In this document: one piece after another, positions 37,179 through 58,963 of the stretch
How positions within the stretch are numbered: the first letter of the stretch is position 1
Layout: every line of letters begins with the position of its first letter
NCBI RefSeq assembly: GCF_055900595.2
Contig: NZ_CM148325.1
Strand: one strand, 5' to 3'
DNA: 64,000 bases
The notes under the pieces: model-generated
What the model was told of the DNA's origin: nothing
Databases searched by the model: none
Seen by the model: only the letters and a program-made list of their open reading frames with translations
Program-made: the position numbers and the translations under genes

Positions 37179-38576
<1,398 letters not shown>

Positions 38577-38658
38577 TTATTCAGTCGATAGTAACCCGCC
38601 CTCCGGGGATAGCAAGCATTTTTTGCAAAAAGGGGTAGATGCAATCGGTTACGCTCTG

Positions 38659-38664
38659 TATAAT
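38659..38664 (+). promoter_or_regulatory. candidate -10 hexamer (TATAAT) of the guaBA promoter
   Basis: Perfect TATAAT 44 bp upstream of the guaB ATG in the xseA-guaB divergent region; -35 element not clearly resolved. Confidence 0.4.
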
Positions 38665-38707
38665 GCCGCGGCAATATTTATTAACCACTCTGGTCGAGAT
38701 ATTGCCC

Positions 38708-40174: not shown

Positions 40175-40242
40175 TTCTCTTCGCCCGACTTCATGTCGGG
40201 CGATTTATATTATCTGTTTCACTTGCCTCGGAATAAGCGTCA

Positions 40243-41820: not shown

Positions 41821-41865
41821 TTCGTTAACGCTTTTCTGCGATTAACACCCATCGAAAATAATACT

Positions 41866-43248: not shown

Positions 43249-43503
43249 CTATGCGGGGATCTTGGTACCAGAGCGCTTTGGGACTTTGGCCAGATTTTTC
43301 TGTACCGCGTTATCAATATGGTGATGGTTATTTTCCTGCCGTGCTTTGAGCCAGCGTTCCACTTCCTCTTTGTCCCACGCGACGGCGCGCTTCGTTAGCG
43401 CAAAACGTTTGGGAAACAGGCCTTTTTGCTCCAACGCATAAATCGTACTTTCAGAGAGTGGCACCATCTGTAAAAGCACGTTTTTTCTAATGGCAATTTT
43501 CAT
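43249..43503 (-). CDS. AlpA/Vis-family phage transcriptional regulator (excisionase-like)
   Basis: 84-aa ORF resembling AlpA (..LSESTIYALEQKGLFPKRFALTKRAVAWDKEEVERWL..); adjacent to and divergent from int. Confidence 0.75.
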   Translation of the reverse strand: MKIAIRKNVLLQMVPLSESTIYALEQKGLFPKRFALTKRAVAWDKEEVERWLKARQENNHHHIDNAVQKNLAKVPKRSGTKIPA

Positions 43504-44314
43504 TGTTTATTCCTTTAATCCAAAGGCACTCAGTTCTGATAACAGATCCTTTTTTACCAGCAGCGGCAGATTGCTTTGTCTCTTTACGCCAGCCGGTTAG
43601 CAAATCGTTATACATTTCGGTGTCGTAGCCGCTGATAACCACGCTTCCTTGTAACCGGGTGACGGTCTCCAGTAAGCGCAGGTGGGCACCATCGTCCATT
43701 TCGTGGCGATAATATTTGTTAGTCAGATTACGGGTGCTATGAACATACGGCGGATCGACAAAATGCAGCGTGTCGGCGGCGTCATGATCCAGAATACACT
43801 GGATGGCATCGCGGTTTTCCACCAGAACCCCTTCAAAACGCTGACCAACGGCGGCCAGATTATCGGGCATACGGCTCCAGATGTGTTGGGCCGTTCCACT
43901 GGCGCGTTTAGTGTCCAGCCGAAAGCCGGTAGTGCCTTTAGTTGCCCCGGCAGAACCGAAGCCCATCGTGGCGCGAATCACTAAACGCCTTGCCTGTTCA
44001 ACAGAATTTTTCCCATAGCGATAGGCCGAAATAAACTCGGTGCGGGAATAGGGTGTCAGGCTGCAGGCTTCAACCAGTCTTTCGCGCAGTTGTGGGGTAC
44101 GAAGAACGGCGAACAGGTTAACGACGTCGCCATCCAGATCGTTGTAAACCTCGGCGTAGCTACGTGGTTTTCTGAGCAGTACGCTGGCTGCACCGCCGAA
44201 GGGTTCCACATAGCATCTGTGGGCCGGAAAGTGGCTAATGATCCACGGAGCTAGTCGCCACTTGCCGCCGTGGTAGCGGATTGCAGGGTGCTTAATCATC
44301 CAGTTTTTCTCCAC
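43487..44314 (-). CDS. Dam-family DNA N6-adenine methyltransferase (paralog 1)
   Basis: 275-aa ORF with N-terminal YHGGK..RCYVEPFGGAAS AdoMet motif and catalytic DPPY motif. Confidence 0.8.
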   Translation of the reverse strand: MEKNWMIKHPAIRYHGGKWRLAPWIISHFPAHRCYVEPFGGAASVLLRKPRSYAEVYNDLDGDVVNLFAVLRTPQLRERLVEACSLTPYSRTEFISAYRYGKNSVEQARRLVIRATMGFGSAGATKGTTGFRLDTKRASGTAQHIWSRMPDNLAAVGQRFEGVLVENRDAIQCILDHDAADTLHFVDPPYVHSTRNLTNKYYRHEMDDGAHLRLLETVTRLQGSVVISGYDTEMYNDLLTGWRKETKQSAAAGKKGSVIRTECLWIKGINNENCH

Positions 44315-44901: not shown

Positions 44902-47559
44902 TTAACGTTGAAAAACCCAACACTTCACCGTCGCCGGGCGGCGCGGTGCGGCTGGGTAACGGCGGTTAAATTCAGCGTTGATGCCGCTGTTAACCGTTCT
45001 GACTTCAATAAACTTGTGGGTACGGCTGGTTTTTAGCACTCGCTTCAAATCGCTGATCGGCGGGATCTGCTGGCGGCGCTCGGTAGCCAGTTGAATAAAG
45101 TGGTTAAGGTTAACGGCGATAAGCTGTTCATCGCGCGAGTGGTTGAGCTGTGGTTCGTCGTCGCCATCGAGGAAGTCGAAAATATCCCAGAACTCCTGCA
45201 CCAGAGGATGGTCGGCGCTGATGGCCTGTTGGCGCTCCAGACTGAGGCGGATAAACATTTCTCTGGTCGCCTGTAGCTGCTCTTCCGTGACCGGAATAAC
45301 CAGCGCCAGCGCGTCGAGCAGCGCCATAAGCTGGGCGTGGTTTTTAATGATGCGGATATGGCGAATATCTGGGTGGGAGTGAAGTTGCTGCTCGTATAGC
45401 GGGATCTGACGGTTAACGCACTCCAGCACGGCCTGTTCCGCCAGCGCTGCCTTCAGCATAAAGCCGGAAAGCTGTTCTACCGGCAGGCGTTCGAGCTGCT
45501 CGGCAGCGACCTTGGTCTGAGTATTCTGGCCGCTGCGGTCGGTGTACAGGTGAATAATACGTTCCAGCACCGGGTTAGAGGCGCTAACATCGGCGTTTTG
45601 CGCAATCACAATCGCGCCCCGGAACGGCGGTTCATAGGTCTCGTTGCCGCTGTTACGCAGACCGCGAGAACGCACCGACCGCCCGTTATAGGCGGTTTTC
45701 AGCTCTTCCCAATCAAAGCCACGCTGCTTTGCCCCCTCCTGATTACGGTCACCCTCGATCAGCACCACCGGCATATTTGCTACCTGCGCAAAGTTGCGCG
45801 CGCGGGCGGCCAGCGTTGATTTAGACGGATCGAAACCTTCATAGTCGCGTCGGCCCAACAGTTTCCAGAGGAACTCTATCAGCGTGGTTTTACCGCTGCC
45901 GGGTTCGCCAACGATTTCCAGAAATGGAAAGCTCTTGTGCTTGTCGCGGATCTGTTCGGCAAACATCGTCCCAAACCAGTACGCCAGCGCCACAAACCCC
46001 TTTGCGCCAAACGCCTGCCAGAGTAGCTGGGGCCACTGGCTGTCCATCTGTTTTAAATTGTCGTTCAGCGTCAGGCTGACCGACTGGTTCAGGCTTTTAA
46101 GGCTAAGTTTGCCCATGTCGAAGAAGTCTTCTTCGTTGAGTGTGTACAGCCGACCATCGCGAACGGCCAGATCGTTGAACACGTAAGCGCGGTATTCTTT
46201 GCTGTAGCCGATAAAATCAGTGGTCTGGACAGTTTTGATTTTGGGAAGCTGCTTGAGCAGCAACTTATCTAACTGCTGACTGGTGCCGGTGAAGATGCCG
46301 CCCTGCGCGATATGCAGCAGGCGCTTTTTGAATTCTGAGCCGCTGGAAAGTTGGGAGCCGGTGAAGGTGTTTTTTATCGGTGGAGTGTCGTCGGGGAAGT
46401 TAATGCGAAAGTAATACCAGCTTTCGTCGGTAATGGTGTTGGCCTGATAGTAGAGGGCGGTCGGGTAGCAGTTGGCTATCTCAACAACGGCGGCTGACTC
46501 CTGTAGCGCTTTATGTTTGGCTTCTTCTTCGTCCAGCTCCTCTTTGCCGTTATACATCACGTTATCAAAGGCACGCATATAACGGTCAATATCCAGCTTG
46601 AACCAGTACAGGCGGCTGTCGAACTCGAAGTGAAACTCTTTGCGTTCGGTACGCTCATGCATCAGTAATGCTTTGGCATTCGGATTGGGAGCGATCAACA
46701 GTGAACCGTAGTAACGATATTTTTTAATCAGATCCGGGTTTAGCCGATCGCGCTGGTGCAAATCGTTCCAGTCCAGCTTGGTGCGGGAATAGGGCGTTTG
46801 TGCGGCGGTGGAAAGCCAGCCGTCGTCGCGGCTGCGTTTTACCCAGCGGCGGGTGTAATTCATGCCCGCTTTGTCGTTATCCAGCGCCCAGACCAGTAAA
46901 GGACGCTTTTTATCCACGAACAGCGCGGCCAGTTGGCTTAACGCCTGCGCCGGATAGTTGTTACAGGTCATCAGGGAAACGGCGGCAATGCCGTGGTGGT
47001 GCAGGGCGATAGCGTCAAAAATGCCCTCAACCAGCCAGATCTCCTGCTGTTCTTCCAGCTTAAGCGTTGGCAATTGCCACCATAGCCCGCTGTAAGCGCC
47101 GTGAAAATTGGCTTTGCGATCGCCGAAACGCTGTGGGCGGTCAACGATCCGCTCCCACCACACGCCGTCAGCCAGCGGGAAACGCACAGTGGCCGAGCCG
47201 AGATCGCGCCGTGCGTCATAGTAGTTCTCTTGAGCGTAACAGTTACGGAGCAGCGAAAGGTCAAAGCCGCGCATCTCGCGCAGGTAGGCATCGGCGGCGG
47301 CCTGTGGGTTTTCCGGGGTTGGGGGATATCTGTCTGACCAGCTTTCAAATAGATCCGGGTACACCTCTTTGATATGGATTTCGGCATTGCATTTATTCAG
47401 GCGACCGCAGCGCAGTACCCACGGGCTGATGGCGTAGGTGTACAGCTCTTTTTTCTGGCAGTCCGGGCAGACGCCCTGCCGCAGCCAGTCGCCCTGTTCT
47501 TTAAAGGAAAAATCGGCTAGCAGTCGCCGCGTAATTTCCTGATGAAGTTGTGGTTGCAT
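44902..47559 (-). CDS. phage/plasmid primase-helicase (zinc-binding + TOPRIM-like primase fused to P-loop NTPase; P4 alpha-like)
   Basis: 885-aa ORF; N-terminal CPDC..C..C zinc motif, EGIFDAIAL TOPRIM-like segment, Walker A GEPGSGKTT in the C-terminal half. Confidence 0.75.
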   Translation of the reverse strand: MQPQLHQEITRRLLADFSFKEQGDWLRQGVCPDCQKKELYTYAISPWVLRCGRLNKCNAEIHIKEVYPDLFESWSDRYPPTPENPQAAADAYLREMRGFDLSLLRNCYAQENYYDARRDLGSATVRFPLADGVWWERIVDRPQRFGDRKANFHGAYSGLWWQLPTLKLEEQQEIWLVEGIFDAIALHHHGIAAVSLMTCNNYPAQALSQLAALFVDKKRPLLVWALDNDKAGMNYTRRWVKRSRDDGWLSTAAQTPYSRTKLDWNDLHQRDRLNPDLIKKYRYYGSLLIAPNPNAKALLMHERTERKEFHFEFDSRLYWFKLDIDRYMRAFDNVMYNGKEELDEEEAKHKALQESAAVVEIANCYPTALYYQANTITDESWYYFRINFPDDTPPIKNTFTGSQLSSGSEFKKRLLHIAQGGIFTGTSQQLDKLLLKQLPKIKTVQTTDFIGYSKEYRAYVFNDLAVRDGRLYTLNEEDFFDMGKLSLKSLNQSVSLTLNDNLKQMDSQWPQLLWQAFGAKGFVALAYWFGTMFAEQIRDKHKSFPFLEIVGEPGSGKTTLIEFLWKLLGRRDYEGFDPSKSTLAARARNFAQVANMPVVLIEGDRNQEGAKQRGFDWEELKTAYNGRSVRSRGLRNSGNETYEPPFRGAIVIAQNADVSASNPVLERIIHLYTDRSGQNTQTKVAAEQLERLPVEQLSGFMLKAALAEQAVLECVNRQIPLYEQQLHSHPDIRHIRIIKNHAQLMALLDALALVIPVTEEQLQATREMFIRLSLERQQAISADHPLVQEFWDIFDFLDGDDEPQLNHSRDEQLIAVNLNHFIQLATERRQQIPPISDLKRVLKTSRTHKFIEVRTVNSGINAEFNRRYPAAPRRPATVKCWVFQR

Positions 47560-48201: not shown

Positions 48202-48540
48202 ATGAAAGAATTTGGCATCCGTTTGAAGGAAGAACGTATCCGACTTGGCCTTGATCAAGACGGCTTTGGACAACTTGGGGGCGTGAAGAAAAACGCACAA
48301 AGTAACTATGAGAATGGACTGCGCAAGCCGGACAGTGACTATCTTGCTGGCATAGCGGCAGCGGGAGTTGATGTTCTGTATGTTCTAACAGGCAACCGCA
48401 CGCCTGTGGCTACGTTGTCCAGTAAAGAGAGTGTGTTGGTGGAGAACTATCGTTCTGCTACGCCAGAACACCAGTCCACCCTTGACACGGTTAGCGCTGC
48501 GCTTGCGCAACCGGGAGTAGGGAAAGCAGCTAAGGGATAA
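48202..48540 (+). CDS. XRE-family helix-turn-helix transcriptional regulator (Cro/CI-like)
   Basis: 112-aa ORF with classic HTH_XRE N-terminus (FGIRLKEERIRLGLDQDGFGQLGGVKKNAQSNYENGLRKPDSDYLAGIA); divergent from ogr. Confidence 0.8.
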   Translation: MKEFGIRLKEERIRLGLDQDGFGQLGGVKKNAQSNYENGLRKPDSDYLAGIAAAGVDVLYVLTGNRTPVATLSSKESVLVENYRSATPEHQSTLDTVSAALAQPGVGKAAKG

Positions 48541-48580
48541 CGAGTAGAATGAATTTGGTTATTGTCTGTATGGAGGCAAA

Positions 48581-49153
48581 ATGAAGTTGAATAATCTGGT
48601 TGCTCTTTACAGGAACATGACAGAGCAAAAATTGGATAGGGTTAAATTCCCATACAGACACAATAATTTACATTTTGATGTATTTTTCTTTATTGATGGA
48701 AAACCGTTTGAGCTTCTTTTCGGAGCATTAGGCGCTAATCTTTGCTTTCGTCTAAAAGTCGAGAAGGGATTCGTCATAAATCCTAATCTGGGAAGTGAGA
48801 CTTATAAAGAATTATGCAAGGCGCTAGGTTTGAAATATGACCCTGCCAATCCATTTAGAACAAGTAAGTTTTTTGAAGATTTTGATGGGAAAATCCCTAC
48901 ATCGGTTACTGTTAAGAATAAGGCAAAATATACTGATATTGCTGTGCATGTCAGGGATGTTGAAGAAGCAGACAGAATATATTTCTGTGGATGGAAAAAC
49001 AACAATGAAGAAAAGAGTCATGTTACTGAAGATAATTTAAAGAAAACGAAAGAGTTTTTAGGGTATCAGGCTTTTCTTGTTTGTAAGGAAAAGAATATTA
49101 GCAGTAGATGGACTGATTTAGAAAATAAAGCAAAAGATTTTTATTTACCATAG
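48581..49153 (+). CDS. hypothetical protein (cargo gene 1, no recognisable domain)
   Basis: 190-aa ORF with strong SD GGAGG; A+T-rich, Lys/Asn-rich; first gene of compact operon. Confidence 0.6.
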   Translation: MKLNNLVALYRNMTEQKLDRVKFPYRHNNLHFDVFFFIDGKPFELLFGALGANLCFRLKVEKGFVINPNLGSETYKELCKALGLKYDPANPFRTSKFFEDFDGKIPTSVTVKNKAKYTDIAVHVRDVEEADRIYFCGWKNNNEEKSHVTEDNLKKTKEFLGYQAFLVCKEKNISSRWTDLENKAKDFYLP

Positions 49154-49167
49154 GATTGTGAGGTTAT

Positions 49168-50316
49168 ATGTCTGATATTTCATTAGGGTGCGTGGTTGTT
49201 CATAGGTTGATAAAAGAGCAACATAAAGATTTCGATCACTCAAAACCATATAGTCGCCGTGATACGGTTCTTGACCGAAATAATGAAATCGTAATTAAAC
49301 TAGTGTCCAGTATAGCCGCATTGTATGGTAAAAAATCTAATAGCTCGCATTATGGTATATTTAATTTAGATGAAACACGCAGGGGGCCTTTTCCAGCGGA
49401 ATTTGATAAATATCGGAATGATACATCCAAGAAGTTAGACGATGAATTGTTTATAGGATTATCAAAAAATGTTATGCATCAGTTATATATTGAGGCAAAG
49501 GATCGACCTGCTGCATCAGGAGGATTACTTCTTTTTGCTGATTATATCAGTAAATCCGTGCGTTACTTTCTTATTGCAATGATTAAGCAAAAGGAAGGTA
49601 TAGTTATTAGTGATAAATTAGAGCCAAAGGAGTTAGAGCATCTTGATCTGGCAAAACTAAACCAGGCGGCACGAATAAACTATGATTTGTATGATAAATA
49701 TATTTCCGCTGATGAGAATGAAAGACAGGATGTTAATTATTTAAGTTTTGTTAGTCCCAGTTCTAACCAGACAACTTCAGGGTATTTCATTACTGCCTTA
49801 GGTTGTGATAAAGGTAATACATCAACTAAAGCTACGAGTAATTTAATTAATGAATCTTTTAACTTCTTCAGAAATCATCAAGAATTAAAGGATAATGCCC
49901 GTAAATTTAAAAATGAAATTATTGAGTATTTATTCGATTGTTCTGAAAATAACATTTCAGCTAAGCTCTCTGTTGTTAGTGAGATGGCGGCGAAGCATAT
50001 GGTTAATTTAGAAGATGACATTAAAGATAAATTGTCAGAAGAATTATATGCTCATTTGAATAGTGAAAGTATTCGTGTGCCTGTGGAATTTAGGGTAAGC
50101 AAATCAGTAGTTAAGAAAAACAGAAATATTAAATATACAAGTGATAATGTTAATTTTGAGTTTAAATCTAGTTTACTAGGCAATACTCTTGATAATGAGA
50201 TATGCTATAATAAGAAAACTGGACATTTAACTTTTACTCGGATTACTCCTGAGAAAAAAAGTGAAATAGCTCAATTGCTTGATGAGTTAATAAAAGAAAG
50301 AAATAGCGAAAAATAA
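49168..50316 (+). CDS. NdpA/YejK-like nucleoid-associated protein homolog (cargo gene 2)
   Basis: 382-aa ORF, SD GTGAGG; collinear similarity to E. coli YejK recalled from memory (VVVHRLIKEQH vs IALHQLIKRDE; GGLLLFADY..VRYFLIAMI vs GGxVLFCHY..VEYLLVAVL). Confidence 0.55.
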   Translation: MSDISLGCVVVHRLIKEQHKDFDHSKPYSRRDTVLDRNNEIVIKLVSSIAALYGKKSNSSHYGIFNLDETRRGPFPAEFDKYRNDTSKKLDDELFIGLSKNVMHQLYIEAKDRPAASGGLLLFADYISKSVRYFLIAMIKQKEGIVISDKLEPKELEHLDLAKLNQAARINYDLYDKYISADENERQDVNYLSFVSPSSNQTTSGYFITALGCDKGNTSTKATSNLINESFNFFRNHQELKDNARKFKNEIIEYLFDCSENNISAKLSVVSEMAAKHMVNLEDDIKDKLSEELYAHLNSESIRVPVEFRVSKSVVKKNRNIKYTSDNVNFEFKSSLLGNTLDNEICYNKKTGHLTFTRITPEKKSEIAQLLDELIKERNSEK

Positions 50317-50318
50317 GG

Positions 50319-50957
50319 TTGCTTAATATGTCATGTTTTGAAACGGTTGTTGAGCTTTTCAGATATGTAGGGCGTCCTAAATTTGATGCTATTAATAATC
50401 GTTTTTCAGCAACTATTTCTTATGATGCTCATATATATGAACTCTTAGTTTCTTTGCAACCTCATACAGCGTGGGGAGAAATTGAAGAGATTGTCATTGA
50501 TGATGTGGATATAGATGTTGATGATAGCCTTCCCGCTAAAGGAACATCAATAACACTGACAATCTCTATATCAACTGGAGCTAGTGAGTCATTTTTTATC
50601 GATATTAAAGATCTAATTCAAAAGTCTCCGATGTTAAATAGAGGTATTTTAAGAAAGTCTTTTTACTTGGTTGAGGAAGATTTTTATTTTAATGAAGGAA
50701 TGGTTGAGGGATTAGCAAAAATACCAGAACTATCTGTTTTAAAGAATCTTTGTGATTTTATTTTATGTCTATCAAAAGTTGCACACTACAGCAATAGTAA
50801 AAGTGATGATGTATGCCATAAGTTAGTTTTCTTGAAAAATACTAATGCTAAGTCATTACCTTTAATTATTGAAACTAATGTTGATTATTCACTTCTTTTA
50901 ACAGGTATTAAGGATTTAAAAATCATCGAATCTTTTTCTGATGAAAAAAAGCTATAA
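50319..50957 (+). CDS. hypothetical protein (cargo gene 3)
   Basis: 212-aa ORF beginning 2 bp after the preceding stop; acidic, no recognisable domain. Confidence 0.55.
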   Translation: MLNMSCFETVVELFRYVGRPKFDAINNRFSATISYDAHIYELLVSLQPHTAWGEIEEIVIDDVDIDVDDSLPAKGTSITLTISISTGASESFFIDIKDLIQKSPMLNRGILRKSFYLVEEDFYFNEGMVEGLAKIPELSVLKNLCDFILCLSKVAHYSNSKSDDVCHKLVFLKNTNAKSLPLIIETNVDYSLLLTGIKDLKIIESFSDEKKL

Positions 50958-51001
50958 CGGATGATAATTATTTTGAGCGAAAAGGGATTTTCATTAATAC
51001 G

Positions 51002-51583
51002 GTGGTCGATTTTCTTGAATCAATCGATGTAAAGAAACAGTTTCATTTTTTATTCTGTGAGTGGGATGAATTTCTAAAACTATACCATAATAACCTCGGT
51101 GTATATCTTAGTGGTTTTTCATTTCATAAAGTAAGAAAGGAAGTGGCAGAGGCAGAAGCTAATTTAGCTGAGCGTTTTTCAAAAATAATGTCAGACATGA
51201 TAGCTAAGCTTTTAGGTATTCCTGTTTCTTTGGTTGCTACTTTTGGCATGATAAAATTAAATACCCTGCCGGAAATGTTAGTGGTTTTTTTAGGTGTATT
51301 GCTCACGTCGATAATTATGTTTTTTATTGTAAGAAGTCAATACACACAGTTTAGGATGATTTGTGATGCTAAAGATATTATATTTTCCCCATTAGTGAAA
51401 AAATCTGTAGGTTATACAGAAGATTTGAAAAAATTAGTATGCAATGCAAAGGATAATTTAGACAAAAATCAGGTCATGTTAAATCGTTACCTTCTTTTCT
51501 TTCAATGCTTATGCTGGATTCCGACAGCCTTAGGTGGTGGAATGATCTTAATGGCTATTATGGTTCATTTAGGATTACTATAA
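51002..51583 (+). CDS. predicted membrane protein (cargo gene 4)
   Basis: 193-aa ORF with apparent GTG start; hydrophobic segments (IPVSLVATFGMIKL.., MLVVFLGVLLTSIIMFFIV, ..CWIPTALGGGMILMAIMVHLGLL); 3' end overlaps convergent gene D by 6 bp; start codon uncertain. Confidence 0.45.
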   Translation: MVDFLESIDVKKQFHFLFCEWDEFLKLYHNNLGVYLSGFSFHKVRKEVAEAEANLAERFSKIMSDMIAKLLGIPVSLVATFGMIKLNTLPEMLVVFLGVLLTSIIMFFIVRSQYTQFRMICDAKDIIFSPLVKKSVGYTEDLKKLVCNAKDNLDKNQVMLNRYLLFFQCLCWIPTALGGGMILMAIMVHLGLL

Positions 51584-52678
51584 ACTTAATTCCATTTCTA
51601 ATGCGGTGACATAACCAGTACCGCCATCCAACGTATGCACGCACCGCGTAATCACCCACGCGGTGCCATCAATTTCCGCCTTAAACCCCTTCACCTGCAG
51701 CGGTAATTCCGGGAACAAATCGGGCCGTCCACGCGCAAGATTCAGGCTGAACGTTGCCGCGCCGCGCTGTAGCTGCTCCCACGCGCTTTTTGCCGCTCTG
51801 TAGGCGTTATTTTTGTTGGCATAGGTGTGGCGCAGCACCTTGATATTTCCCTCTTCGCCAACCATCACGTTATCAGCATTGAATGAGGCGTCTGACGGCG
51901 GAGATTCTGTTGGTTGCGTTTGTGGACGGTTTTTCCGTGTCTTGCGCTTCATGTCAGTGGACTGCTTTTTTGCCTGCCGTGTATCCAGCCAGTAGGCCGT
52001 CACACCGGTATACGCCTCCCTGTCCGCGATGCTGAACCGGTGGCTGTCGCCGTCCTCGCGGGTAATGGTTGCGACCGGCAGCGGTTTGCCGCTGGCACTT
52101 TTACCGGAACCTGTCGGCATTAGCAGCAGAGCATCATTTTTCACGCAGGCGATAGCGCCGTGCAGTTGCGCCAGCCGGGTCAGGAAGGAGGCATCGGATT
52201 CGTTAGTCTGGTCAACGTGCTCAATGGCGATCCCAGCCAGCTCGCCGCTGACGGTTGATTCCAGCTTATGACGCGCCGCCACGGTTTGCACAATCGCGCC
52301 CAGCGTCGCATCATGGTAGCTCTGTTCCCGTTTAACGTTCAGCGAATCGCGGAAATCGGCGCTGCGGGCGCGGAGGCTGAGTACGTCCGGTGCGCCGCTG
52401 TGCTCCAGTTCGTCCACTGTGAAGACATTCTGGTGCATCACGCCGTCACCCTTCCAGCCTAGAGAAACCGTTAGCTTTTCGCCCTTTGCCGGAAACGCCA
52501 GCAGGCCGTCGCTGTCGTCCAGTTCGAGCTGCAGTTCGTCGGCCTCAAAGCCCCGGTTGTCGGTGATACGCAGGCTGATTAAGCGGTTGTCCAGATTCCG
52601 CGTAATGTCCTTACCGTTCAGCACCACGCTGTACTCCGGCTGCGGCTGGGCGTTTAAGAGTGCGTTTAACATCGTCAT
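51578..52678 (-). CDS. P2 gpD-like tail protein (late control D)
   Basis: 366-aa ORF, MTMLNALLNAQPQPEYSVVLNGKDITRNLDNRLISLRITDN.. typical of gpD; position after U. Confidence 0.85.
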   Translation of the reverse strand: MTMLNALLNAQPQPEYSVVLNGKDITRNLDNRLISLRITDNRGFEADELQLELDDSDGLLAFPAKGEKLTVSLGWKGDGVMHQNVFTVDELEHSGAPDVLSLRARSADFRDSLNVKREQSYHDATLGAIVQTVAARHKLESTVSGELAGIAIEHVDQTNESDASFLTRLAQLHGAIACVKNDALLLMPTGSGKSASGKPLPVATITREDGDSHRFSIADREAYTGVTAYWLDTRQAKKQSTDMKRKTRKNRPQTQPTESPPSDASFNADNVMVGEEGNIKVLRHTYANKNNAYRAAKSAWEQLQRGAATFSLNLARGRPDLFPELPLQVKGFKAEIDGTAWVITRCVHTLDGGTGYVTALEMELSL

Positions 52679-53103
52679 AGTCCGTCTACCATCGTGATGA
52701 TGTCGCCCAGCAAGCCACCCAGCTTCGGCGGATCGACACGTTTTAACGCCAGCGTAAACTCAATGCGCCGGGCCGCACCGTCGCGAAAAAAGACGCTCCG
52801 GGTGACGTTCAGACTCTCAATCACAAACCAGCCATGCAGCGATCCGGTGCCTTCAATCAGCGGCCAAGCCATCCCCTGATCGGCCATCTTTCGCAGGAAA
52901 AACAGGGTAAATCGCCCGCCGGTCAGTTCCGGCAACAGCACGCCGTTTAGCGTAATGGTTTCGTCACCCACGCCGATAAACTGGCTGGCCGGACGTAGCC
53001 CCACGCGGGAACTGGCAGGATGCCGCCACGCTACGGCGTGCTGCATATCCTGATAGGGCAGGGTTTTCAGGCTGAAGACGAACAGCCCCAGTACCATCAT
53101 CAT
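52675..53103 (-). CDS. P2 gpU-like tail protein
   Basis: ORF 52675..53211; probable start at MMMVLGLFVF (53103) overlapping end of T; 4-bp overlap with D start. Confidence 0.75.
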   Translation of the reverse strand: MMMVLGLFVFSLKTLPYQDMQHAVAWRHPASSRVGLRPASQFIGVGDETITLNGVLLPELTGGRFTLFFLRKMADQGMAWPLIEGTGSLHGWFVIESLNVTRSVFFRDGAARRIEFTLALKRVDPPKLGGLLGDIITMVDGL

Positions 53104-53113
53104 AAGAGCCTCC

Positions 53114-55963
53114 TTAATCAATATCGCGCAGGCTGCTGCGGGTTCTGGCGGCATTCTGCCTTTCGCGCTTGTCCAGTTCCTGCGCCACCAGTTTCGCCAG
53201 TTGTTGTTCATTCATGCCGGGAGCAGCGTGGATGTGAATAGTGACAGGCCCGCCGCTGGCTGCCGGTACAGAAAGGGATGCTGGCGCGAGCGGGGCGCGA
53301 TTATCCGGCAGGGCGGCGATAGGGGGCATGGCGACAGCGGCGGCGCTGAGCGTCAGCCCGGCACCGGCGGCGATTAACTGCTTCGAGAGTTGCCCTACGC
53401 TGGCCAGCGCCGTTTGCGTGTTGCCCTCAATCCCGACCGCCAGCCCGTCCACGGTATAGCGGCCCATTTCGGCGAACACCCGCGACGGTGAATGAATACC
53501 GAGCTTGTCCTTAAACCAGTTGGAAATATTGCTGCCCAGATCCAGCACGCCCTGTTTAATCGCTTCCCATTTGGCAAAGATCCCCTGTTTCAGCCCTTCC
53601 ATGATATTGCCGCCGATCTCGGTAAAGCGGGTGGACAGGTTACTGAAACTGTTCAGAACGTTATCCCAGACTGTGGTAAACACCGTGGACAGGTTCCAGT
53701 TGGTGAAAAAAGCATTGATGGCATTCAGGGCAGTGCTGACGGTGGTTTTAATTCCCTCCCAGATACCGGTGGCGGTAGTGGTAATGCCCGTCCAGATTTG
53801 CCCCAGAAATGCCACCACGCTGTTCCACGCCTCAGCGGTACTGGCTTTGATAGTATCCCAGTGCTGGTAAATCAGGCCGGGAAGCGTCCAGTTCAGCAGG
53901 ATATTCACCAGCCCGTTCCAGCAGCCGGAGAGAAACGTTTTAATCCCTTCCCAGACGGCGCTGGTTGTGGCTTTTACACTGTTCCACGCATCGCTGCATA
54001 CCTGCTTAAAACTATTCCAGAGCGCGGCGAACTTCGGCCCCAGCCAGTCCCAGTTACTCCAGATCCAGATGGCGGCACCGGCGATCAGCGCAATCACCGC
54101 CAGAATCGGGTTAGCCATCATTGCGCGGCCCAGCCAAATTACCGCTTTTCCCGCGCCTTTAAAGGCATTCGCCAGCAGCCCCAGCGCGCTGCCGCCCTTA
54201 ATACCGAGCACCGACAGGCTGAGTTTTAGCGCCGCCATCGGGCCGAGGATACCGGCCAGCGTCAGGGATATGCCTCCGAGCGCCACGGCGAACGCGCCGA
54301 TCGCCATGCCGATTTTCACCAGCGTGGCGGTTAATTGTGGGTTGGCCTTCATCCATGCGCCGATGGACTGTAAAACGCCGGTTATGCGTTGGGTAATACT
54401 GCGCAACGGGCTGTCAACTGATTCGAACATCTCAATACCGAGATCTTCCCACGCCGAGTCAAGATTCTGGAGATCACCCTTCATATTATCGGCCATCGTT
54501 TTGGCAACTTTGCCAGCGGTACCGAGGGAGGCTTTCACCTGTTCGGCATAGGCTTCAATACGCTGCGACGGATCGAGTGACGCCTGTTTGTCGAGCAGTT
54601 CCATCATCGCGGAAGAGGCTTCCACACCGAAAATATCCTTGATGTAGGACATTTTCTTCACGTTGCCGACGCCGCCGATCCCTTGCTTCTCAAACGCGGC
54701 GGAGATTTCTGCCAGTAGCTGCGGCATCTCTTTCATTTTTCCGGTGCTGTCCGCCACCGAGACTTTCAGGTCTTCCAGCGCGGCGGCGGCTTTTTTCGGC
54801 TGTGATGCCAGCCGCAACAGCGCCATACGTAAGGATGTACCTGCCTGCGCTCCCTGAATCCCCACGTTACCCAGCATCCCGACCATCGCTGACATGGTTT
54901 CAAAGTCCTGCCCCGCAGCCTGTGCAGCCGGGCCGACGTATTTCATGGTTTCACCCAGCATCTGCAGGTCGGTATTAGACGTAGTGAACGTGAAGGTGAG
55001 CGCGTCAGCCATGCGTTGCATCTGGTCTGCCGGGATTTTATAGGCGCTCTGAATATTGGAGGCGATATCGGAAACCTGAGCAAGCTGCGTGTCCATCCCC
55101 GCCGCTTTCGCCAGATCCAACATGTGCGGCATCGCCTTTTCGATTTTATCTGGCGTGTAGCCCGCCATTGCCAGAAAACCCTGCCCCTGCGCCACATCGT
55201 TGGCGGTAAAGCTGGTTGATGCGCCTAAATCTCGCGATTGCGTTCGCAGCCGTTTCAGTTCATCAGAGTTTTTATCGGTGCGTGTTAACGCCTGTACGCG
55301 CGACATGCCCACGTCGAAATCGTAGCCGGGCATCATTACCCGCGCGCTGCCGTAAAGCATACCCACGCCGGTGGCCGTCGTGGTTGCGCCGAATCCGGCC
55401 AGTTTGTTGCGGGCGTCCATTGCTCCTGCGTAGCTATTTTTTGCTGCGTTCATCCGCTGCTGCTGCCGGTTTAGCCGTTCCAGTCGCCTGCGCTGTTCCT
55501 CCATGCTACGGTTAGCACTCTCCAGTCGTTGCCGTAGTTCACTCTGGCGCTGGCTGAGATTACGGGTATCGATACCAGCGTTGCGCAGTACGGTGCGGCT
55601 ATGCTGCTGGGCCTGAGTAAGCTGACCATGCCGTTCTTTAAGTCGCCGCGCCTCCTGCTGAGCACGTTCAAACTCCCGACGCATCGCAGCCGTGGGCGCA
55701 GTGCTGCTTTGCATTGCCGTGGCCAGCGCCCGGACGCGATCCTGCGCGCTTTTAAGCTGATTGCCGGTGACGGCGACATCGCGCGCCAGCTTGCGGTAGC
55801 CATCGATTTGTCCGGCCTGTTTGTTCAGGTCTTTGACCTGCTGCTGCGCCGCTTTCAGTGCTCTGGCGGTGTCGCTGCTGCTTTGCGTGACGGCTTTTAG
55901 CGGACGGGTGATTTTATCTACGGCGCTGAGTAGTACCTGTAAACGAAGGTTTTGTGTGCTCAT
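53114..55963 (-). CDS. tail tape measure protein (gpT-like)
   Basis: 949-aa ORF with coiled-coil N-terminus and Ala/Gly-rich hydrophobic middle; located between E/E' and U. Confidence 0.85.
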   Translation of the reverse strand: MSTQNLRLQVLLSAVDKITRPLKAVTQSSSDTARALKAAQQQVKDLNKQAGQIDGYRKLARDVAVTGNQLKSAQDRVRALATAMQSSTAPTAAMRREFERAQQEARRLKERHGQLTQAQQHSRTVLRNAGIDTRNLSQRQSELRQRLESANRSMEEQRRRLERLNRQQQRMNAAKNSYAGAMDARNKLAGFGATTTATGVGMLYGSARVMMPGYDFDVGMSRVQALTRTDKNSDELKRLRTQSRDLGASTSFTANDVAQGQGFLAMAGYTPDKIEKAMPHMLDLAKAAGMDTQLAQVSDIASNIQSAYKIPADQMQRMADALTFTFTTSNTDLQMLGETMKYVGPAAQAAGQDFETMSAMVGMLGNVGIQGAQAGTSLRMALLRLASQPKKAAAALEDLKVSVADSTGKMKEMPQLLAEISAAFEKQGIGGVGNVKKMSYIKDIFGVEASSAMMELLDKQASLDPSQRIEAYAEQVKASLGTAGKVAKTMADNMKGDLQNLDSAWEDLGIEMFESVDSPLRSITQRITGVLQSIGAWMKANPQLTATLVKIGMAIGAFAVALGGISLTLAGILGPMAALKLSLSVLGIKGGSALGLLANAFKGAGKAVIWLGRAMMANPILAVIALIAGAAIWIWSNWDWLGPKFAALWNSFKQVCSDAWNSVKATTSAVWEGIKTFLSGCWNGLVNILLNWTLPGLIYQHWDTIKASTAEAWNSVVAFLGQIWTGITTTATGIWEGIKTTVSTALNAINAFFTNWNLSTVFTTVWDNVLNSFSNLSTRFTEIGGNIMEGLKQGIFAKWEAIKQGVLDLGSNISNWFKDKLGIHSPSRVFAEMGRYTVDGLAVGIEGNTQTALASVGQLSKQLIAAGAGLTLSAAAVAMPPIAALPDNRAPLAPASLSVPAASGGPVTIHIHAAPGMNEQQLAKLVAQELDKRERQNAARTRSSLRDID

Positions 55964-56084
55964 GATTCAACACCGCTGCGCTGGCGGGCCTGCTCCCGCC
56001 AGTAAAGGGTTTCGCCAAGGGTTAATGCGTCCATCGCGGATAGTGGCCAATGGAAGATGACGGCTATGTCGCCTTGAGCCTCCT

Positions 56085-56381
56085 CTATGCGTCCGGGGTA
56101 TCCGTTGCTTCCGGCGAGGTCTGCGGCAAAAAACCGACAAGCGCCGTACCGAAAGCCGTCAGGTCGATAAAATCCAGTTGCGCCACCTCATGCTTATTCA
56201 GCGGCGGTGCGGTGATGCGCGGTAGAACGCTGGTGAGTGCATCTACGTTAAGGCTTAACAGCTCCACCAGACTGACACCGCGCAGGTCGCCGCCCAGTGG
56301 TTTACGGATCTGGAACTCGACAAATTCGGTTTCGCCGCGTTTCAGGGGAGTATTCAGGGTAACGGTTTTACGTTCGCTCAT
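56085..56381 (-). CDS. P2 gpE-like tail assembly chaperone
   Basis: 98-aa ORF between FII and T with slippery site near its 3' end. Confidence 0.8.
   Translation of the reverse strand: MSERKTVTLNTPLKRGETEFVEFQIRKPLGGDLRGVSLVELLSLNVDALTSVLPRITAPPLNKHEVAQLDFIDLTAFGTALVGFLPQTSPEATDTPDA
56106..56112 (-). other. candidate -1 programmed frameshift slippery site (TTTTTTG) for E+E' synthesis
   Basis: Minus-strand heptamer T-TTT-TTG nine codons before the gpE stop; the -1 frame stays open across the 121-bp gap toward T, as in P2 E/E+E'. Confidence 0.6.
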
Positions 56382-56390
56382 GGTTCATCC

Positions 56391-56906
56391 TTACAGGCCA
56401 ATGGCGCGACGTGCGCCAGCCAGACGGTCTTTGCCGTCGATATTTTCAATAAAGTTCACGGTGTCGATTTCGACGATGGTTTCACCGTTGACGCTCTCTT
56501 TGTAATAGGTACAAAGGGTGCTGATTTTGGTCGCGGAGTTCTCGCCCTGCTTGTATTCGCCGCGATCCAGCTCTTTGTGGCGACCACGCACCACGATTTC
56601 CACCGCGTCGTACTCTTCGCTGTCTTCACGCTGGATAGCGCCGGAGAATCGCAGCATCACGCCGCTGATCTTCGTCCAGCCGATCTGCCGCAGCGCCAGC
56701 AGCTCATAGCCGCCGATTGACCATTCCACGCTGAGCGCCTCGTCATCCAGTCCCAGATCGACATGCGCCGCGCCGTTCATGCCGCCGCCGCGATAGGCTT
56801 CCAGCTTGCGCGTCAGCTTTGCCGGGGTGAAGGACTCCACCTGTGCCAGATAGATATCGCCCTCGTTAAACAGGTTGAGGTATTTCAGTTTGCTGGGTAG
56901 TGCCAT
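56391..56906 (-). CDS. tail tube protein (gpFII-like)
   Basis: 171-aa ORF MALPSKLKYLNLFNEG.. with typical FII C-terminus (..IDTVNFIENIDGKDRL..). Confidence 0.88.
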   Translation of the reverse strand: MALPSKLKYLNLFNEGDIYLAQVESFTPAKLTRKLEAYRGGGMNGAAHVDLGLDDEALSVEWSIGGYELLALRQIGWTKISGVMLRFSGAIQREDSEEYDAVEIVVRGRHKELDRGEYKQGENSATKISTLCTYYKESVNGETIVEIDTVNFIENIDGKDRLAGARRAIGL

Positions 56907-56920
56907 GGTGCGTTCTCCTG

Positions 56921-58099
56921 TTACACAGTGGTGGCGATGGATTCAGCCAGATTGACCAGATAGCGGTCAGTGATGCGCTGGCGGAACATCAGGTTTTCCA
57001 GCGGCGGCACCGGGGTGTAGTCGTAGTCGATATACGCTTTACCCGCTTTCAGGATGTCCGGCGTGTTGGCGGCGGGATCGAACCATGCGGAGCCGTCGAC
57101 GATGTAGCCGTTGCCTTTCAGTTCGCGGAATTTGGCGTTCACGCCTTCGATAATGTCGCGGAACAGAGAAGCGTGTTGCGGTTTATCTATCGCCCAGAAG
57201 TGGGCGTCGGCGATGGTATCCGCCAGCACCTGCGCGGTGCGGGTGTAGTTCTCAAAGGCAAACAGCGGATCGGTGCTGCAGGTGCGCGATCCCCAGAAGC
57301 GATAGCCGGCGTTGCAAATCAGCGTGGTGACGTCGTGGCTGTTGAGGTAATCCGAATCGGTGGCGGTGGACTGCAGATCCCAGAATACGCTGCGGGAAAT
57401 GCCGGTCACGCCGTTGACGTCAACGTTGGACAGCGTTTTATGCCAGCCGGTTTCTTCATCAATTTTTGCACGCAGGCCCACGGCGCGGGCGGTGGCGTAT
57501 AGGGTACGTTCGGCGGCAGCCTGTGTATCAAAGCCGACAAAATCCGGCCAGATAATCATCGCCTCTCGCGCACCTAGCTGATCGCGATACAGCACCGCCT
57601 CTTCTTTGGTCTGCGCGCCGAACGCCGACAGATAGCTGAAGGCGCGAAGCTGTTGTGAAATGCTGACCAGTTCGGTGGCGATGGGCAGAGAATCCAGCCC
57701 TGGTACCGCCAGAATGCGCGGTTTTATTTTCAGTTTGGTTTGCGAGTCCAGTAGCGCCTTCATGCCGGTGTATTTCCCGGCTGGCGTGCTGCCGCCGATG
57801 ATATTGGCGGTGGTTTCGGCGGCGGAGTCACCTTCGGCTACGCGCACGGCGACCACCACCGGCTGCGTCTGGTCGGCGATGGCATCCAGAGAGTGTGCCA
57901 GCGTACCGCTATCACCGGCTTTACCCAGCGCAGATCGCACGTCGGTTAACAGTACTGGGGTATCAAGGGGAAAGGTTTTTTCATCGGCATCTGAACCGGT
58001 ACAGACAATGCCGATCACGGCAGTGGAAATGGTACGGATCGGGCGCACGCCTTCATTGATTTCAATAACGCGCGCGCCGTGGTGGTAGTCGGTTGCCAT
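56921..58099 (-). CDS. tail sheath protein (gpFI-like)
   Basis: ORF 56921..58186; probable start MATDYHHGARVIEINEG at 58099; C-terminal ..IDYDYTPVPPLENL.. sheath signature. Confidence 0.88.
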   Translation of the reverse strand: MATDYHHGARVIEINEGVRPIRTISTAVIGIVCTGSDADEKTFPLDTPVLLTDVRSALGKAGDSGTLAHSLDAIADQTQPVVVAVRVAEGDSAAETTANIIGGSTPAGKYTGMKALLDSQTKLKIKPRILAVPGLDSLPIATELVSISQQLRAFSYLSAFGAQTKEEAVLYRDQLGAREAMIIWPDFVGFDTQAAAERTLYATARAVGLRAKIDEETGWHKTLSNVDVNGVTGISRSVFWDLQSTATDSDYLNSHDVTTLICNAGYRFWGSRTCSTDPLFAFENYTRTAQVLADTIADAHFWAIDKPQHASLFRDIIEGVNAKFRELKGNGYIVDGSAWFDPAANTPDILKAGKAYIDYDYTPVPPLENLMFRQRITDRYLVNLAESIATTV

Positions 58100-58204: not shown

Positions 58205-58963
58205 TTAATTCAGGATAATCAGTTCTGATGTGGTGCTGGCTGGCTTTCCACCTACGGTATAGCGAATCCCTACCGTTGAGAATGTCAGGCCGTGGAAGAT
58301 ATCGCGCATTTCCGGGATGTCGTTAACCGAGATAATCATCCGGCCCTGCATGGTGCGCGCCAGCTCTGCCATACGCTGGTACTGCTCAAGGCCAAATGGT
58401 ACGCCGTAGCCTTCGGTTTTCCAGTATGGTGGGTCGCAGTAGAACAGGGTATGCGGGCGGTCATAGCGGCGAATACAGTCGGCCCAGTCCAGATTTTCAA
58501 TGCAGACGCGCGCCAGCCGCAGATGGGCGGCGGATAAATCCTCTTCCATACGCAGCAGGTTCAGGCGCGGCGGTGAGGTGGTGGCGGTACCGAACGTGCG
58601 ACTTTCCACTTTGCCGCCGAATGCCAGCTTTTGCAGATAGTAGAAGCGCGCCGCGCGCTGGATATCGGTCAGCGTTTCTTCCGGGGTGATCTGGAGCCAG
58701 CGGTACATTTCGCGGCTGACCAGCGACCATTTAAACTGGCGGACAAACTCTTCTAAATGGTGCTGAAGTACGCGGTAGAGGTTGGTAACGTCACCGTTGA
58801 TATCGTTCAGCACCTCGGCCTGTGCGGGCTGTTTCATAAAGAACAACGCTGCCGCCCCGCAGAACGGTTCAACGTAGCAGCGGTGTTTGGGAAACAGTGG
58901 CAGAATGTGTTTTGCCAGCCTGCGCTTACCGCCGATCCACGGAATAACGGGTAACGTATTCAA
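58205..58963 (-). CDS. Dam-family DNA N6-adenine methyltransferase (paralog 2), moron between G and FI
   Basis: 252-aa ORF with IGGK..RCYVEPFCGAAA and DPPY motifs; start overlaps upstream stop (ATGA). Confidence 0.8.
   Translation of the reverse strand: MNTLPVIPWIGGKRRLAKHILPLFPKHRCYVEPFCGAAALFFMKQPAQAEVLNDINGDVTNLYRVLQHHLEEFVRQFKWSLVSREMYRWLQITPEETLTDIQRAARFYYLQKLAFGGKVESRTFGTATTSPPRLNLLRMEEDLSAAHLRLARVCIENLDWADCIRRYDRPHTLFYCDPPYWKTEGYGVPFGLEQYQRMAELARTMQGRMIISVNDIPEMRDIFHGLTFSTVGIRYTVGGKPASTTSELIILN

What the first reader, a model, noticed from the sequence alone, without database searches (positions are those of the whole stretch)
55964..56112. Programmed -1 frameshift signal (TTTTTTG) for the tail chaperone E/E+E' pair
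The heptamer TTTTTTG lies nine codons before the gpE stop on the minus strand, and the 121-bp gap between E and T remains open in the -1 frame. This matches the conserved E/E+E' frameshift of P2 (analogous to lambda G/GT), so the apparently non-coding gap encodes the E' extension.
Basis: partly seen in the sequence, partly recalled or inferred. Interest (0 to 1): 0.35.

Follow-up and report, generated by a model that had tools for sequence, protein, structure and literature searches.

The report
P2-type tail chaperone frameshift site
This is an ordinary copy of the well-known phage P2 E/E+E' programmed -1 ribosomal frameshift in a P2-like prophage, so the apparent 121-bp gap before the tape-measure gene is coding sequence.

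Summary
A slippery heptamer T_TTT_TTG lies in gene E on the minus strand at 56133..56127. That is outside the stated 55964-56112, and it is 13 codons (not nine) before the E stop. From it the -1 frame is open for 55 codons and ends at a TGA (55962..55960) overlapping the ATG of tape-measure gene T.

Openness alone is weak evidence: the +1 frame is also open, and chance gives about 0.18. The decisive evidence is:
- The -1 product matches Pfam Phage_P2_GpE (9e-15); the +1 product matches nothing.
- The fused 140-aa protein aligns through the junction with P2 E+E' (45% identity, 2e-40), with the heptamer at the same nucleotide offset (248).
- All 82 related loci keep an in-frame TTTTTT[G/A] followed by a 54-58 codon extension.
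- In the "gap", 26 of 40 variable sites are synonymous in the -1 frame, against 6 and 3 in the other frames.
- No canonical start codon precedes the conserved E' motif.

RefSeq annotates E' in a 96.6%-identical E. coli prophage as a separate CDS starting at ATA, an annotation workaround.

This copy lacks both a downstream RNA structure and the upstream GGTG element that most relatives conserve. It is a known mechanism, a new ordinary member, and of low interest.

The parts
56127..56133 (-). Slippery heptamer T_TTT_TTG (zero-frame codons GGT TTT TTG = G83 F84 L85 of E). This is the site of the -1 shift, and G 56127 is read twice.
   Evidence: The offset (248 nt) and the 12-mer GTCGGTTTTTTG are the same as in P2 and L-413C. 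It is conserved as TTTTTT[G/A] in 82 of 82 related loci. Codon usage would predict it in about 1.8% of lineages.
56085..56381 (-). Gene E, the zero-frame product: a 98-aa tail assembly chaperone.
   Evidence: Pfam Phage_TAC_7 7e-11; PHROG 103 'tail' 2e-32; 43 of 59 variable columns are synonymous in this frame.
55960..56127 (-). E' extension in the -1 frame: 55 codons plus stop TGA (55962..55960). The first 13 codons overlap the tail of E and the other 42 fill the 121-bp 'gap'.
   Evidence: Pfam Phage_P2_GpE 9e-15; PHROGs 6416 and 1756; 46% identity to P2 E'; 26 of 40 variable columns in the gap are synonymous in this frame against 6 and 3 in the others; no ATG/GTG/TTG precedes the DIAVIFHW motif.
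55960..56381 (-). Composite E+E' coding region, join(56381..56127, 56127..55960): predicted 140-aa frameshift product with junction ...ALVGFL|AADLAG...
   Evidence: Aligns with P2 E+E' (142 aa) at 45% identity, E 2e-40, through the junction. 336 phage records match at least 80% of it, and all listed near-full-length matches are in two pieces, meaning two frames.
53114..55963 (-). Gene T, tape measure protein (949 aa). Its ATG overlaps the E+E' stop as ATGA.
   Evidence: Pfam PhageMin_Tail 2e-46; the junction sequence is shown.
56391..56906 (-). Gene FII, tail tube protein, immediately upstream of E.
   Evidence: Pfam Phage_tube 3e-54.
56921..58099 (-). Gene FI, tail sheath protein. The start at M30 of the 421-aa ORF is inferred from the 392-aa RefSeq homologue.
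   Evidence: Pfam Phage_sheath_1 and Phage_sheath_1C; the length of the homologue is.
51578..53103 (-). Genes U (52675..53103; start inferred from the 142-aa RefSeq homologue) and D (51578..52678), completing the FETUD-type operon.
   Evidence: Pfam Phage_P2_GpU 1.5e-40 and Phage_GPD 3.5e-23; annotation of the homologous locus.

Best explanation
The locus is the tail-assembly-chaperone pair of a P2-like (Peduoviridae-type) prophage, expressed by programmed -1 ribosomal frameshifting.

Most ribosomes translate gene E (56381..56085, minus strand) to its TAG stop and make the 98-aa chaperone.

A minority shift when tRNA-Phe sits on UUU in the P site and tRNA-Leu on UUG in the A site. Both tRNAs slip back one base on U_UUU_UUG, the G at 56127 is re-read, and translation continues in the -1 frame for 55 more codons. 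It ends at a TGA that overlaps the ATG of tape-measure gene T. The product is a 140-aa protein, E+E', that shares its first 85 residues with E.

By analogy with phage lambda G/GT, the shared E part is expected to coat the tape-measure protein. The E' domain is expected to recruit the tail tube protein. The frameshift efficiency would fix the E : E+E' ratio.

Shown here: the anatomy, the homology of both frames, family-wide conservation of the signal, and purifying selection on the -1 frame.

Inferred, not shown: the frameshift event itself, its efficiency, and the chaperone role. These rest on P2 and lambda experiments reported in the literature.

In this copy the heptamer appears to act alone. 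No downstream RNA structure and no upstream SD-like element were found.
For: - Register and open frame.
- Pfam Phage_TAC_7 for E (7e-11) and Phage_P2_GpE for the -1 extension (9e-15, 54 bits against a cutoff of 23); nothing for the +1 frame. PHROGs agrees.
- P2 and L-413C records annotate E+E' as a joined CDS with a '-1 frameshift' note. The heptamer is at an identical offset, the lengths are 140 vs 142 aa, and BLASTP gives 45% identity, 2e-40, through the junction.
- 410 phage records match the fused protein, 336 at 80% coverage or more, and all listed near-full-length matches are in two pieces.
- 82 of 82 comparison loci have an in-frame TTTTTT[G/A] and a 54-58 codon extension containing DIAVIFHW.
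- The heptamer is invariant across 6 clusters at 70% identity while flanking codons vary. The joint codon-usage expectation is 0.018 per lineage.
- Gap substitutions are 26/40 synonymous in the -1 frame, against 6/40 and 3/40 in the others.
- There is no canonical start in the -1 frame from its upstream stop to beyond the conserved motif. The RefSeq 'GpE family' CDS in E. coli L725 starts at ATA.
- Literature: the P2 shift at TTTTTTG yields a 91-aa E and a 142-aa E+E', is conserved in P2-like phages, and has no downstream hairpin (PMC3091744; PMC3931495). The lambda G/GT mechanism and its 30:1 ratio are described in PMC5009743.
Against: - There is no direct expression evidence for this prophage.
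- There is no stimulatory RNA structure downstream (z = 0.29).
- The upstream GGTG/AAGGTG element that most relatives conserve at the nucleotide level is missing here, so efficiency could be lower than in P2.
- The neighbouring cargo gene carries a 1-nt frameshift. That could mean the prophage is decaying, or that the assembly has homopolymer errors.
- Only part of the prophage is in the window, so its integrity is unknown.
Confidence: 0.93

Rival explanations
1. E' is a separate small gene translated from its own start, as RefSeq/PGAP annotates it (a 42-aa 'GpE family phage tail protein' overlapping the E stop by 4 nt), not a frameshift extension.
For: The 96.6%-identical E. coli L725 locus carries such a separate CDS. 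Pfam and PHROGs hold E' as families of their own.
Against: - That CDS begins at ATA, which is not a normal start codon.
- In the window the -1 frame has no ATG/GTG/TTG between its upstream stop (20 codons before the slip site) and an ATG that lies after the conserved DIAVIFHW motif.
- The fused protein aligns with P2 E+E' continuously across the junction, including residues upstream of the PGAP start.
- The heptamer would have no reason to be invariant in 82 of 82 loci.
- P2 E' is reported to lack a ribosome binding site (PMC3931495).
Confidence: 0.03
2. The -1 frame is reached by transcriptional slippage. RNA polymerase adds one extra U in the U6 run, so a fraction of the mRNAs encode E+E' directly and no ribosomal shift is needed.
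For: The site is a homopolymer run. The same frame change would result, and sequence analysis alone cannot separate the two routes. Recoding reviews list both mechanisms (PMC5009743).
Against: - Established knowledge, not tested here: efficient slippage by bacterial RNA polymerase generally needs runs of about 8-9 or more A/T, and six T is short.
- The conserved feature is the full heptamer in a fixed codon register, with only G or A allowed at position 7. That fits tandem tRNA re-pairing, whereas polymerase slippage would not care about register or the seventh base.
- The P2 site is described in the literature as translational.
Confidence: 0.03
3. The gap is non-coding, or the 57-aa +1-frame ORF (56140..55967) is the real product, and the heptamer plus open -1 frame is a coincidence of GC-rich sequence.
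For: The +1 frame is open for 52 codons. The chance of a 55-codon open frame at this composition is about 0.18, and TTTTTTG occurs 20 times in the window.
Against: - The +1 product has no family match.
- It is interrupted after 37 and 10 codons in relatives L004 and L005.
- Only 3 of 40 variable sites are synonymous in that frame.
- The -1 frame shows a coding substitution pattern and strong homology.
Confidence: 0.01

Closest known systems
Bacteriophage P2 E / E+E' (FETUD tail operon; Christie et al. 2002, J Bacteriol 184:6522, cited through PMC3091744 and PMC3931495) and its copy in Yersinia phage L-413C
   Same: - The gene order is FI-FII-E(E')-T-U-D.
- The heptamer TTTTTTG is identical, in the same register and at the same nucleotide offset (248) in E, on the conserved residues V-G-F-L.
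- The extension is of similar length (55 vs 57 codons) and carries the conserved DIAVIFHWP...WR...RSG motif.
- The extension ends overlapping the T start.
- There is no downstream hairpin.
   Different: - Protein identity is only 45%.
- The E tail after the slip site is 13 codons instead of 6.
- The overlap with T is 4 nt (ATGA) instead of 8 nt (ATGAGTAA).
- The upstream AAGGTG present in P2 and most relatives is replaced by GCGCTTGTC.
- This copy belongs to a small separate cluster with L003-L005 and the E. coli L725 prophage.
Bacteriophage lambda G / GT tail assembly chaperones (Levin et al. 1993; Xu, Hendrix and Duda 2004, 2013, 2014; summarised in PMC5009743)
   Same: - The genes occupy the same position, between the major tail (tube) gene and the tape-measure gene.
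[quoted passage not shown]
- Neither protein is in the virion.
- This gives the functional model: the chaperone coats the tape measure and the extension recruits the tube subunit.
   Different: - No sequence similarity is reported (PMC3931495).
- The slippery sequence differs (lambda uses G_GGA_AAG, from my own knowledge).
- Lambda has a non-contractile tail, whereas this is a contractile tail with a sheath gene.
P2-like phages of Burkholderia (KS5, KS14, KL3) and Stenotrophomonas phage Smp131
   Same: The E/E+E' frameshift site is predicted to be conserved by the same kind of comparative argument, and no downstream structure was found (PMC3091744; PMC3931495).
   Different: Smp131 and the xanthomonad prophages use T7G or T7C instead of T6G. 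Those were isolated phages, whereas this is an unannotated prophage next to guaA in an Escherichia chromosome.

Membership tests
P2-type E/E+E' frameshifted tail assembly chaperone pair | Located between the tail tube gene and the tape-measure gene of a contractile-tail operon (FI-FII-E-T-U-D). | tested here: met
   Pfam assigns sheath, tube, TAC_7, PhageMin_Tail, GpU and GPD in that order on the minus strand. The order matches the P2 record.
P2-type E/E+E' frameshifted tail assembly chaperone pair | The zero-frame product is homologous to gpE. | tested here: met
   Phage_TAC_7 7e-11, above the gathering score; PHROG 103 2e-32; alignment to P2 E.
P2-type E/E+E' frameshifted tail assembly chaperone pair | Slippery heptamer T_TTT_TTG (X_XXY_YYZ) in the zero-frame register near the 3' end of E. 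| tested here: met
   56133..56127 (-), offset 248 as in P2 and L-413C. Conserved in 82 of 82 relatives and beyond the codon-usage expectation.
P2-type E/E+E' frameshifted tail assembly chaperone pair | A -1 frame extension homologous to E', with no start codon or RBS of its own, ending at or overlapping the T start. | tested here: met
   Phage_P2_GpE 9e-15; no canonical start before the conserved motif; the TGA overlaps the T ATG; coding substitution pattern in the -1 frame.
P2-type E/E+E' frameshifted tail assembly chaperone pair | Both E and E+E' are actually produced, with E+E' as a minor fraction, by ribosomal -1 slippage. | not testable with these tools
   Needs protein analysis or a reporter assay. 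It is known for P2 only through the literature.
P2-type E/E+E' frameshifted tail assembly chaperone pair | E and E' are both essential for tail assembly. | not testable with these tools
   Needs genetics. The purifying selection seen is consistent with it but indirect.
Lambda G/GT-like tail assembly chaperones (functional class of Xu et al. 2004) | Two overlapping ORFs between the major tail gene and the tape-measure gene, linked by a conserved programmed frameshift. | tested here: met
Lambda G/GT-like tail assembly chaperones (functional class of Xu et al. 2004) | Sequence or structural homology to lambda gpG/gpGT. | not tested
   No similarity is reported between P2 E/E' and lambda G/T (PMC3931495). 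No solved structure is related by sequence. No structure prediction was run.
-1 PRF sites with cis stimulators (dnaX type) | A downstream stem-loop or pseudoknot and/or an upstream SD-like element. | tested here: not met
   The downstream 97 nt fold no better than shuffles (z 0.29). The best anti-SD duplex in the upstream 30 nt is -3.1 kcal/mol, which is background level.

The most novel reading that the evidence does not exclude
The most novel reading concerns the GGTG/AAGGTG element 5 nt upstream of the heptamer. Most P2-type sites conserve it at the nucleotide level. Val is GTG in 60 of 69 cases against 33% elsewhere in E, Lys is AAG in 36 of 41 against 24% elsewhere, and the third-position G is kept even where the amino acid changes. 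This may be a real Shine-Dalgarno-like modulator of the frameshift. This prophage lineage (the window, L003 and E. coli L725) has lost it and also has no downstream structure. It would then be a natural 'bare heptamer' variant with a different E : E+E' ratio, useful for testing how the ratio is set. I could not establish whether this element has been described before.
Probability: 0.15. Interest if true: 0.3.

Novelty: new member of a known kind. Interest (0 to 1): 0.1.

Why it matters
The main value is for annotation. The 121-bp "gap" is coding, and the correct gene model is a joined E+E' CDS: join(56381..56127, 56127..55960) on the minus strand. RefSeq currently represents the equivalent region in near-identical E. 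coli prophages as an independent 42-aa gene starting at ATA. That misstates the protein, so proteomics and homology searches will miss the true 140-aa product. Biologically the site is a textbook mechanism, and a specialist would not be surprised. The only mildly interesting point is that this lineage lacks the upstream GGTG element conserved in most P2-type sites.

Tried and rejected
- **Openness of the -1 frame as evidence.** Rejected as insufficient. The +1 frame is open for 52 codons, chance is about 0.18, and the same criterion gives 3 hits in the window.
- **+1-frame 57-aa ORF (56140..55967).** No family hit, broken in relatives, and a non-coding substitution pattern.
- **Downstream stimulatory RNA structure.** None found (z 0.29; 0.28 with a 70-nt window).
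- **Upstream SD-like stimulator.** Absent in this copy, though present in most relatives.
- **NCBIfam.** No model matched E, E' or the fusion.
- **PDB sequence search.** No related solved structure.
- **Primary paper.** Christie et al. 2002 (PMC135442) is not held, so I cite it only through PMC3091744 and PMC3931495. The roughly 10% efficiency I recall from its abstract is unverified here.
- **tRNA scan for the attachment site.** No tRNA in the window. The prophage abuts guaA instead.
- **Tool-use errors.** Two tool calls failed on term syntax and one script on a file name.
- **Structure prediction of E+E'.** I decided it was not needed for the verdict.

Full report
**What is in the sequence.**
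On the minus strand the window carries a P2-type tail operon.

| Gene | Coordinates (minus strand) | Pfam family |
|---|---|---|
| FI, sheath | 56921..58099 | Phage_sheath_1 / 1C |
| FII, tube | 56391..56906 | Phage_tube, 3e-54 |
| E | 56085..56381, 98 aa | Phage_TAC_7, 7e-11 |
| T, tape measure | 53114..55963, 949 aa | PhageMin_Tail, 2e-46 |
| U | 52675..53103 | Phage_P2_GpU |
| D | 51578..52678 | Phage_GPD |

E ends at TAG 56087..56085 and T starts at ATG 55963, leaving exactly 121 bp between them.

**Checking the observation.**
- The heptamer TTTTTTG exists, but at 56133..56127 (-). That is outside the stated 55964..56112.
- It is followed by 13 zero-frame codons before the stop, not nine.
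- It is in the X_XXY_YYZ register. The codons are GGT TTT TTG (Gly83-Phe84-Leu85), at offset 248 in E.
- Re-reading G 56127 opens a -1 frame of 55 codons: AADLAGSNGYPGRIEEAQGDIAVIFHWPLSAMDALTLGETLYWREQARQRSGVES. It ends at TGA 55962..55960, which overlaps the T start as ATGA.

**Is it more than chance?**
- TTTTTTG occurs 20 times in the window.
- The +1 frame is also open, for 52 codons.
- Shuffles of the stretch stay open for 55 codons 18% of the time.
- The rule [quoted passage not shown] gives three hits in this window, one of them in a spurious antisense frame inside T.

The case rests on four other lines of evidence.

**1. Homology of the shifted frame.**
- The -1 extension matches Pfam PF06528 Phage_P2_GpE (9e-15, 54 bits against a cutoff of 23). 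It also matches PHROGs 6416 and 1756, category 'tail'. The +1 product matches nothing.
- The predicted fusion is 140 aa. It aligns with P2 E+E' (142 aa, reconstructed from NC_001895) at 45% identity, E = 2e-40, continuously through the junction.
- The E' parts alone align at 46% identity, E = 5e-14.
- The heptamer is at the same nucleotide offset (248) in P2, L-413C and the window, within the identical 12-mer GTCGGTTTTTTG.
- Both reference records annotate E+E' as a joined CDS with a '-1 frameshift' note.

**2. Family-wide conservation.**
- tblastn of the fusion finds 410 phage records, 336 covering at least 80%. All listed near-full-length matches are in two pieces, meaning two frames.
- I examined 82 comparison loci: 80 IMG/VR contigs plus P2 and L-413C. 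Every one has an in-frame TTTTTT[G/A] (61 G, 21 A).
- Each is followed by a -1 extension of 54-58 codons carrying DIAVIFHW, and nearly all end at the T start.
- The heptamer is invariant across 6 protein clusters at 70% identity (11 at 80%), while flanking codons vary.
- Codon usage in these same genes would give GGT-TTT-TTR only 1.8% of the time per lineage.

**3. Selection in this lineage.**
I compared four close relatives (L003, L004, L005 and the E. coli L725 prophage).
- Variable columns downstream of the E stop are synonymous in the -1 frame in 26 of 40 cases, against 6 of 40 and 3 of 40 in the other frames.
- That mirrors the body of E in its own frame, 43 of 59.
- The +1 ORF is cut to 37 and 10 codons in L004 and L005.

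**4. No independent start.**
- The -1 frame has no ATG, GTG or TTG from its upstream stop (20 codons before the slip site) until an ATG that lies after the conserved motif.
- RefSeq annotates the 96.6%-identical E. coli L725 locus with a separate 42-aa 'GpE family phage tail protein'. That CDS starts at ATA, evidently a workaround forced by the family hit.

**Mechanism.**
The best-supported reading is tandem -1 slippage of tRNA-Phe (P site, UUU) and tRNA-Leu (A site, UUG) on U_UUU_UUG. This gives E (98 aa) as the major product and E+E' (140 aa, junction ...ALVGFL|AADLAG...) as the minor one.

The literature describes exactly this for P2. A shift at TTTTTTG gives a 91-aa E and a 142-aa E+E'. 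E' lacks a ribosome binding site, and the arrangement is conserved in P2-like phages (PMC3091744; PMC3931495).

The functional model comes from lambda G/GT. The shared part binds the tape measure, the extension binds the tube subunit, and the ratio is critical (PMC5009743). It is inferred by analogy and was not tested here.

I looked for cis stimulators.
- The 97 nt downstream fold no better than shuffles (z 0.29). This matches what is reported for P2 and the Burkholderia phages.
- Upstream, most relatives have AAGGTG ending 5 nt before the heptamer.
- That element is conserved beyond protein needs. Val is GTG in 60 of 69 cases against 33% elsewhere in E. Lys is AAG in 36 of 41 against 24% elsewhere. 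The third-position G is kept where the residue varies.
- The window, L003 and L725 lack it (GCG CTT GTC), and their best anti-SD duplex is -3.1 kcal/mol, at background level.
- Whether that element modulates frameshifting is unknown. These counts are not phylogenetically independent.

**Rivals.**
- Independent initiation of E' is contradicted by the missing start codon and the through-junction alignment.
- Transcriptional slippage cannot be excluded from sequence. It is disfavoured by the short T6 run and by conservation of register and of the seventh base. The junction residue (Leu against Phe) would discriminate.
- The "non-coding gap" and "+1 ORF" readings are refuted.

**Differences from P2.**
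- Identity is 45%.
- The E tail is 13 codons against 6; other clades show 12, 13 or 22.
- The overlap with T is 4 nt against 8 nt.
- The upstream GGTG is absent.
- The copy sits in a small cluster of its own with L003-L005 and L725.

**Context.**
- The prophage lies immediately after guaA. Host homology ends near 41822 and the integrase is at 42031..43245.
- The flanking chromosome matches 9 RefSeq 'E. coli' genomes at 99% or more, and about 5,400 at 90-95%.
- No complete E. coli genome in the collection holds this tail region above 97% identity.

**Verdict.**
The mechanism is already known, and this is a new, ordinary member of the P2 E/E+E' class. Its practical value is a corrected gene model. 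Interest is low.

Noticed in passing
window 50319..51583 (+), poly-A tract about 50944..50950: Two unknown ORFs next to gpD (212 aa and 193 aa) are a single 418-aa hypothetical protein in E. coli GMF054 (99.7% identical DNA). The only indel is an A8 run there against A7 here. In the window the break falls on an in-frame A_AAA_AAG two codons before the stop, and a -1 shift there regenerates exactly the intact protein. It could be a pseudogene, a homopolymer assembly error or a phase-variable tract, possibly rescued in part by frameshifting or transcriptional slippage.
   Followed up: partly
relatives L001-L082, 5-11 nt upstream of the heptamer; window 56134..56145 (-) lacks it: Most P2-type E genes carry an SD-like AAGGTG / GGTG core 5 nt upstream of the slippery heptamer. 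Its synonymous-codon bias is far above that of the rest of E (GTG 60/69 against 33%; AAG 36/41 against 24%). The window, L003 and E. coli L725 have lost it. It may be a frameshift modulator, or only a local codon preference.
   Followed up: partly
L009, L010, L015, L021, L058 (downstream of the heptamer): A clade that uses TTTTTTA instead of TTTTTTG has a stable hairpin (GGAGGCG...CGCCTC) starting about 12 nt after the heptamer, with z about -3 against mononucleotide shuffles. The window and P2 have none.
   Followed up: no
L083 7412..7540 (E. coli L725, NZ_CP036202.1); equivalent to window 56088..55960 (-): RefSeq/PGAP annotates E' as an independent 42-aa 'GpE family phage tail protein' whose first codon is ATA. 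This looks like a systematic mis-annotation of the frameshifted E+E' product.
   Followed up: yes
window 48202..50316 (+): A cargo island lies between the prophage regulatory region and gpD: an HTH protein, a DUF6037 protein and a 37-kD nucleoid-associated (NA37) protein, with no PADLOC defence hit apart from a weak HTH match. In E. coli L725 the slot nearest gpD holds a 'GTP pyrophosphokinase' next to NA37 and HTH genes, so this is a variable cargo hotspot.
   Followed up: partly
window 58205..58963 (-) and 43487..44314 (-): The prophage carries two D12-class N6-adenine DNA methyltransferases. One is inserted inside the tail cluster, between the tail-fibre assembly side and the sheath gene, where P2 has none.
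   Followed up: no
window about 37200..41822 and 42031..43245: The prophage abuts the 3' end of guaA (xseA-guaB-guaA flank), with the integrase 200 bp further on and no tRNA in the whole window. The flank matches only 9 RefSeq 'E. coli' genomes at 99% or more and about 5,400 at 90-95%, so the host is a divergent Escherichia lineage.
   Followed up: partly
window 29044..37131 (+): A giant 2695-aa ORF has nine InvE adhesion domains and nine BIg21 Ig-like repeats (a large repetitive adhesin), just upstream of xseA.
   Followed up: no
window 44902..47559 (-): An 885-aa Toprim-domain protein (a primase-like replication gene of the prophage) gives weak PADLOC matches to DnaG-like parts of DRT reverse-transcriptase models. 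These probably reflect only the shared Toprim domain.
   Followed up: no
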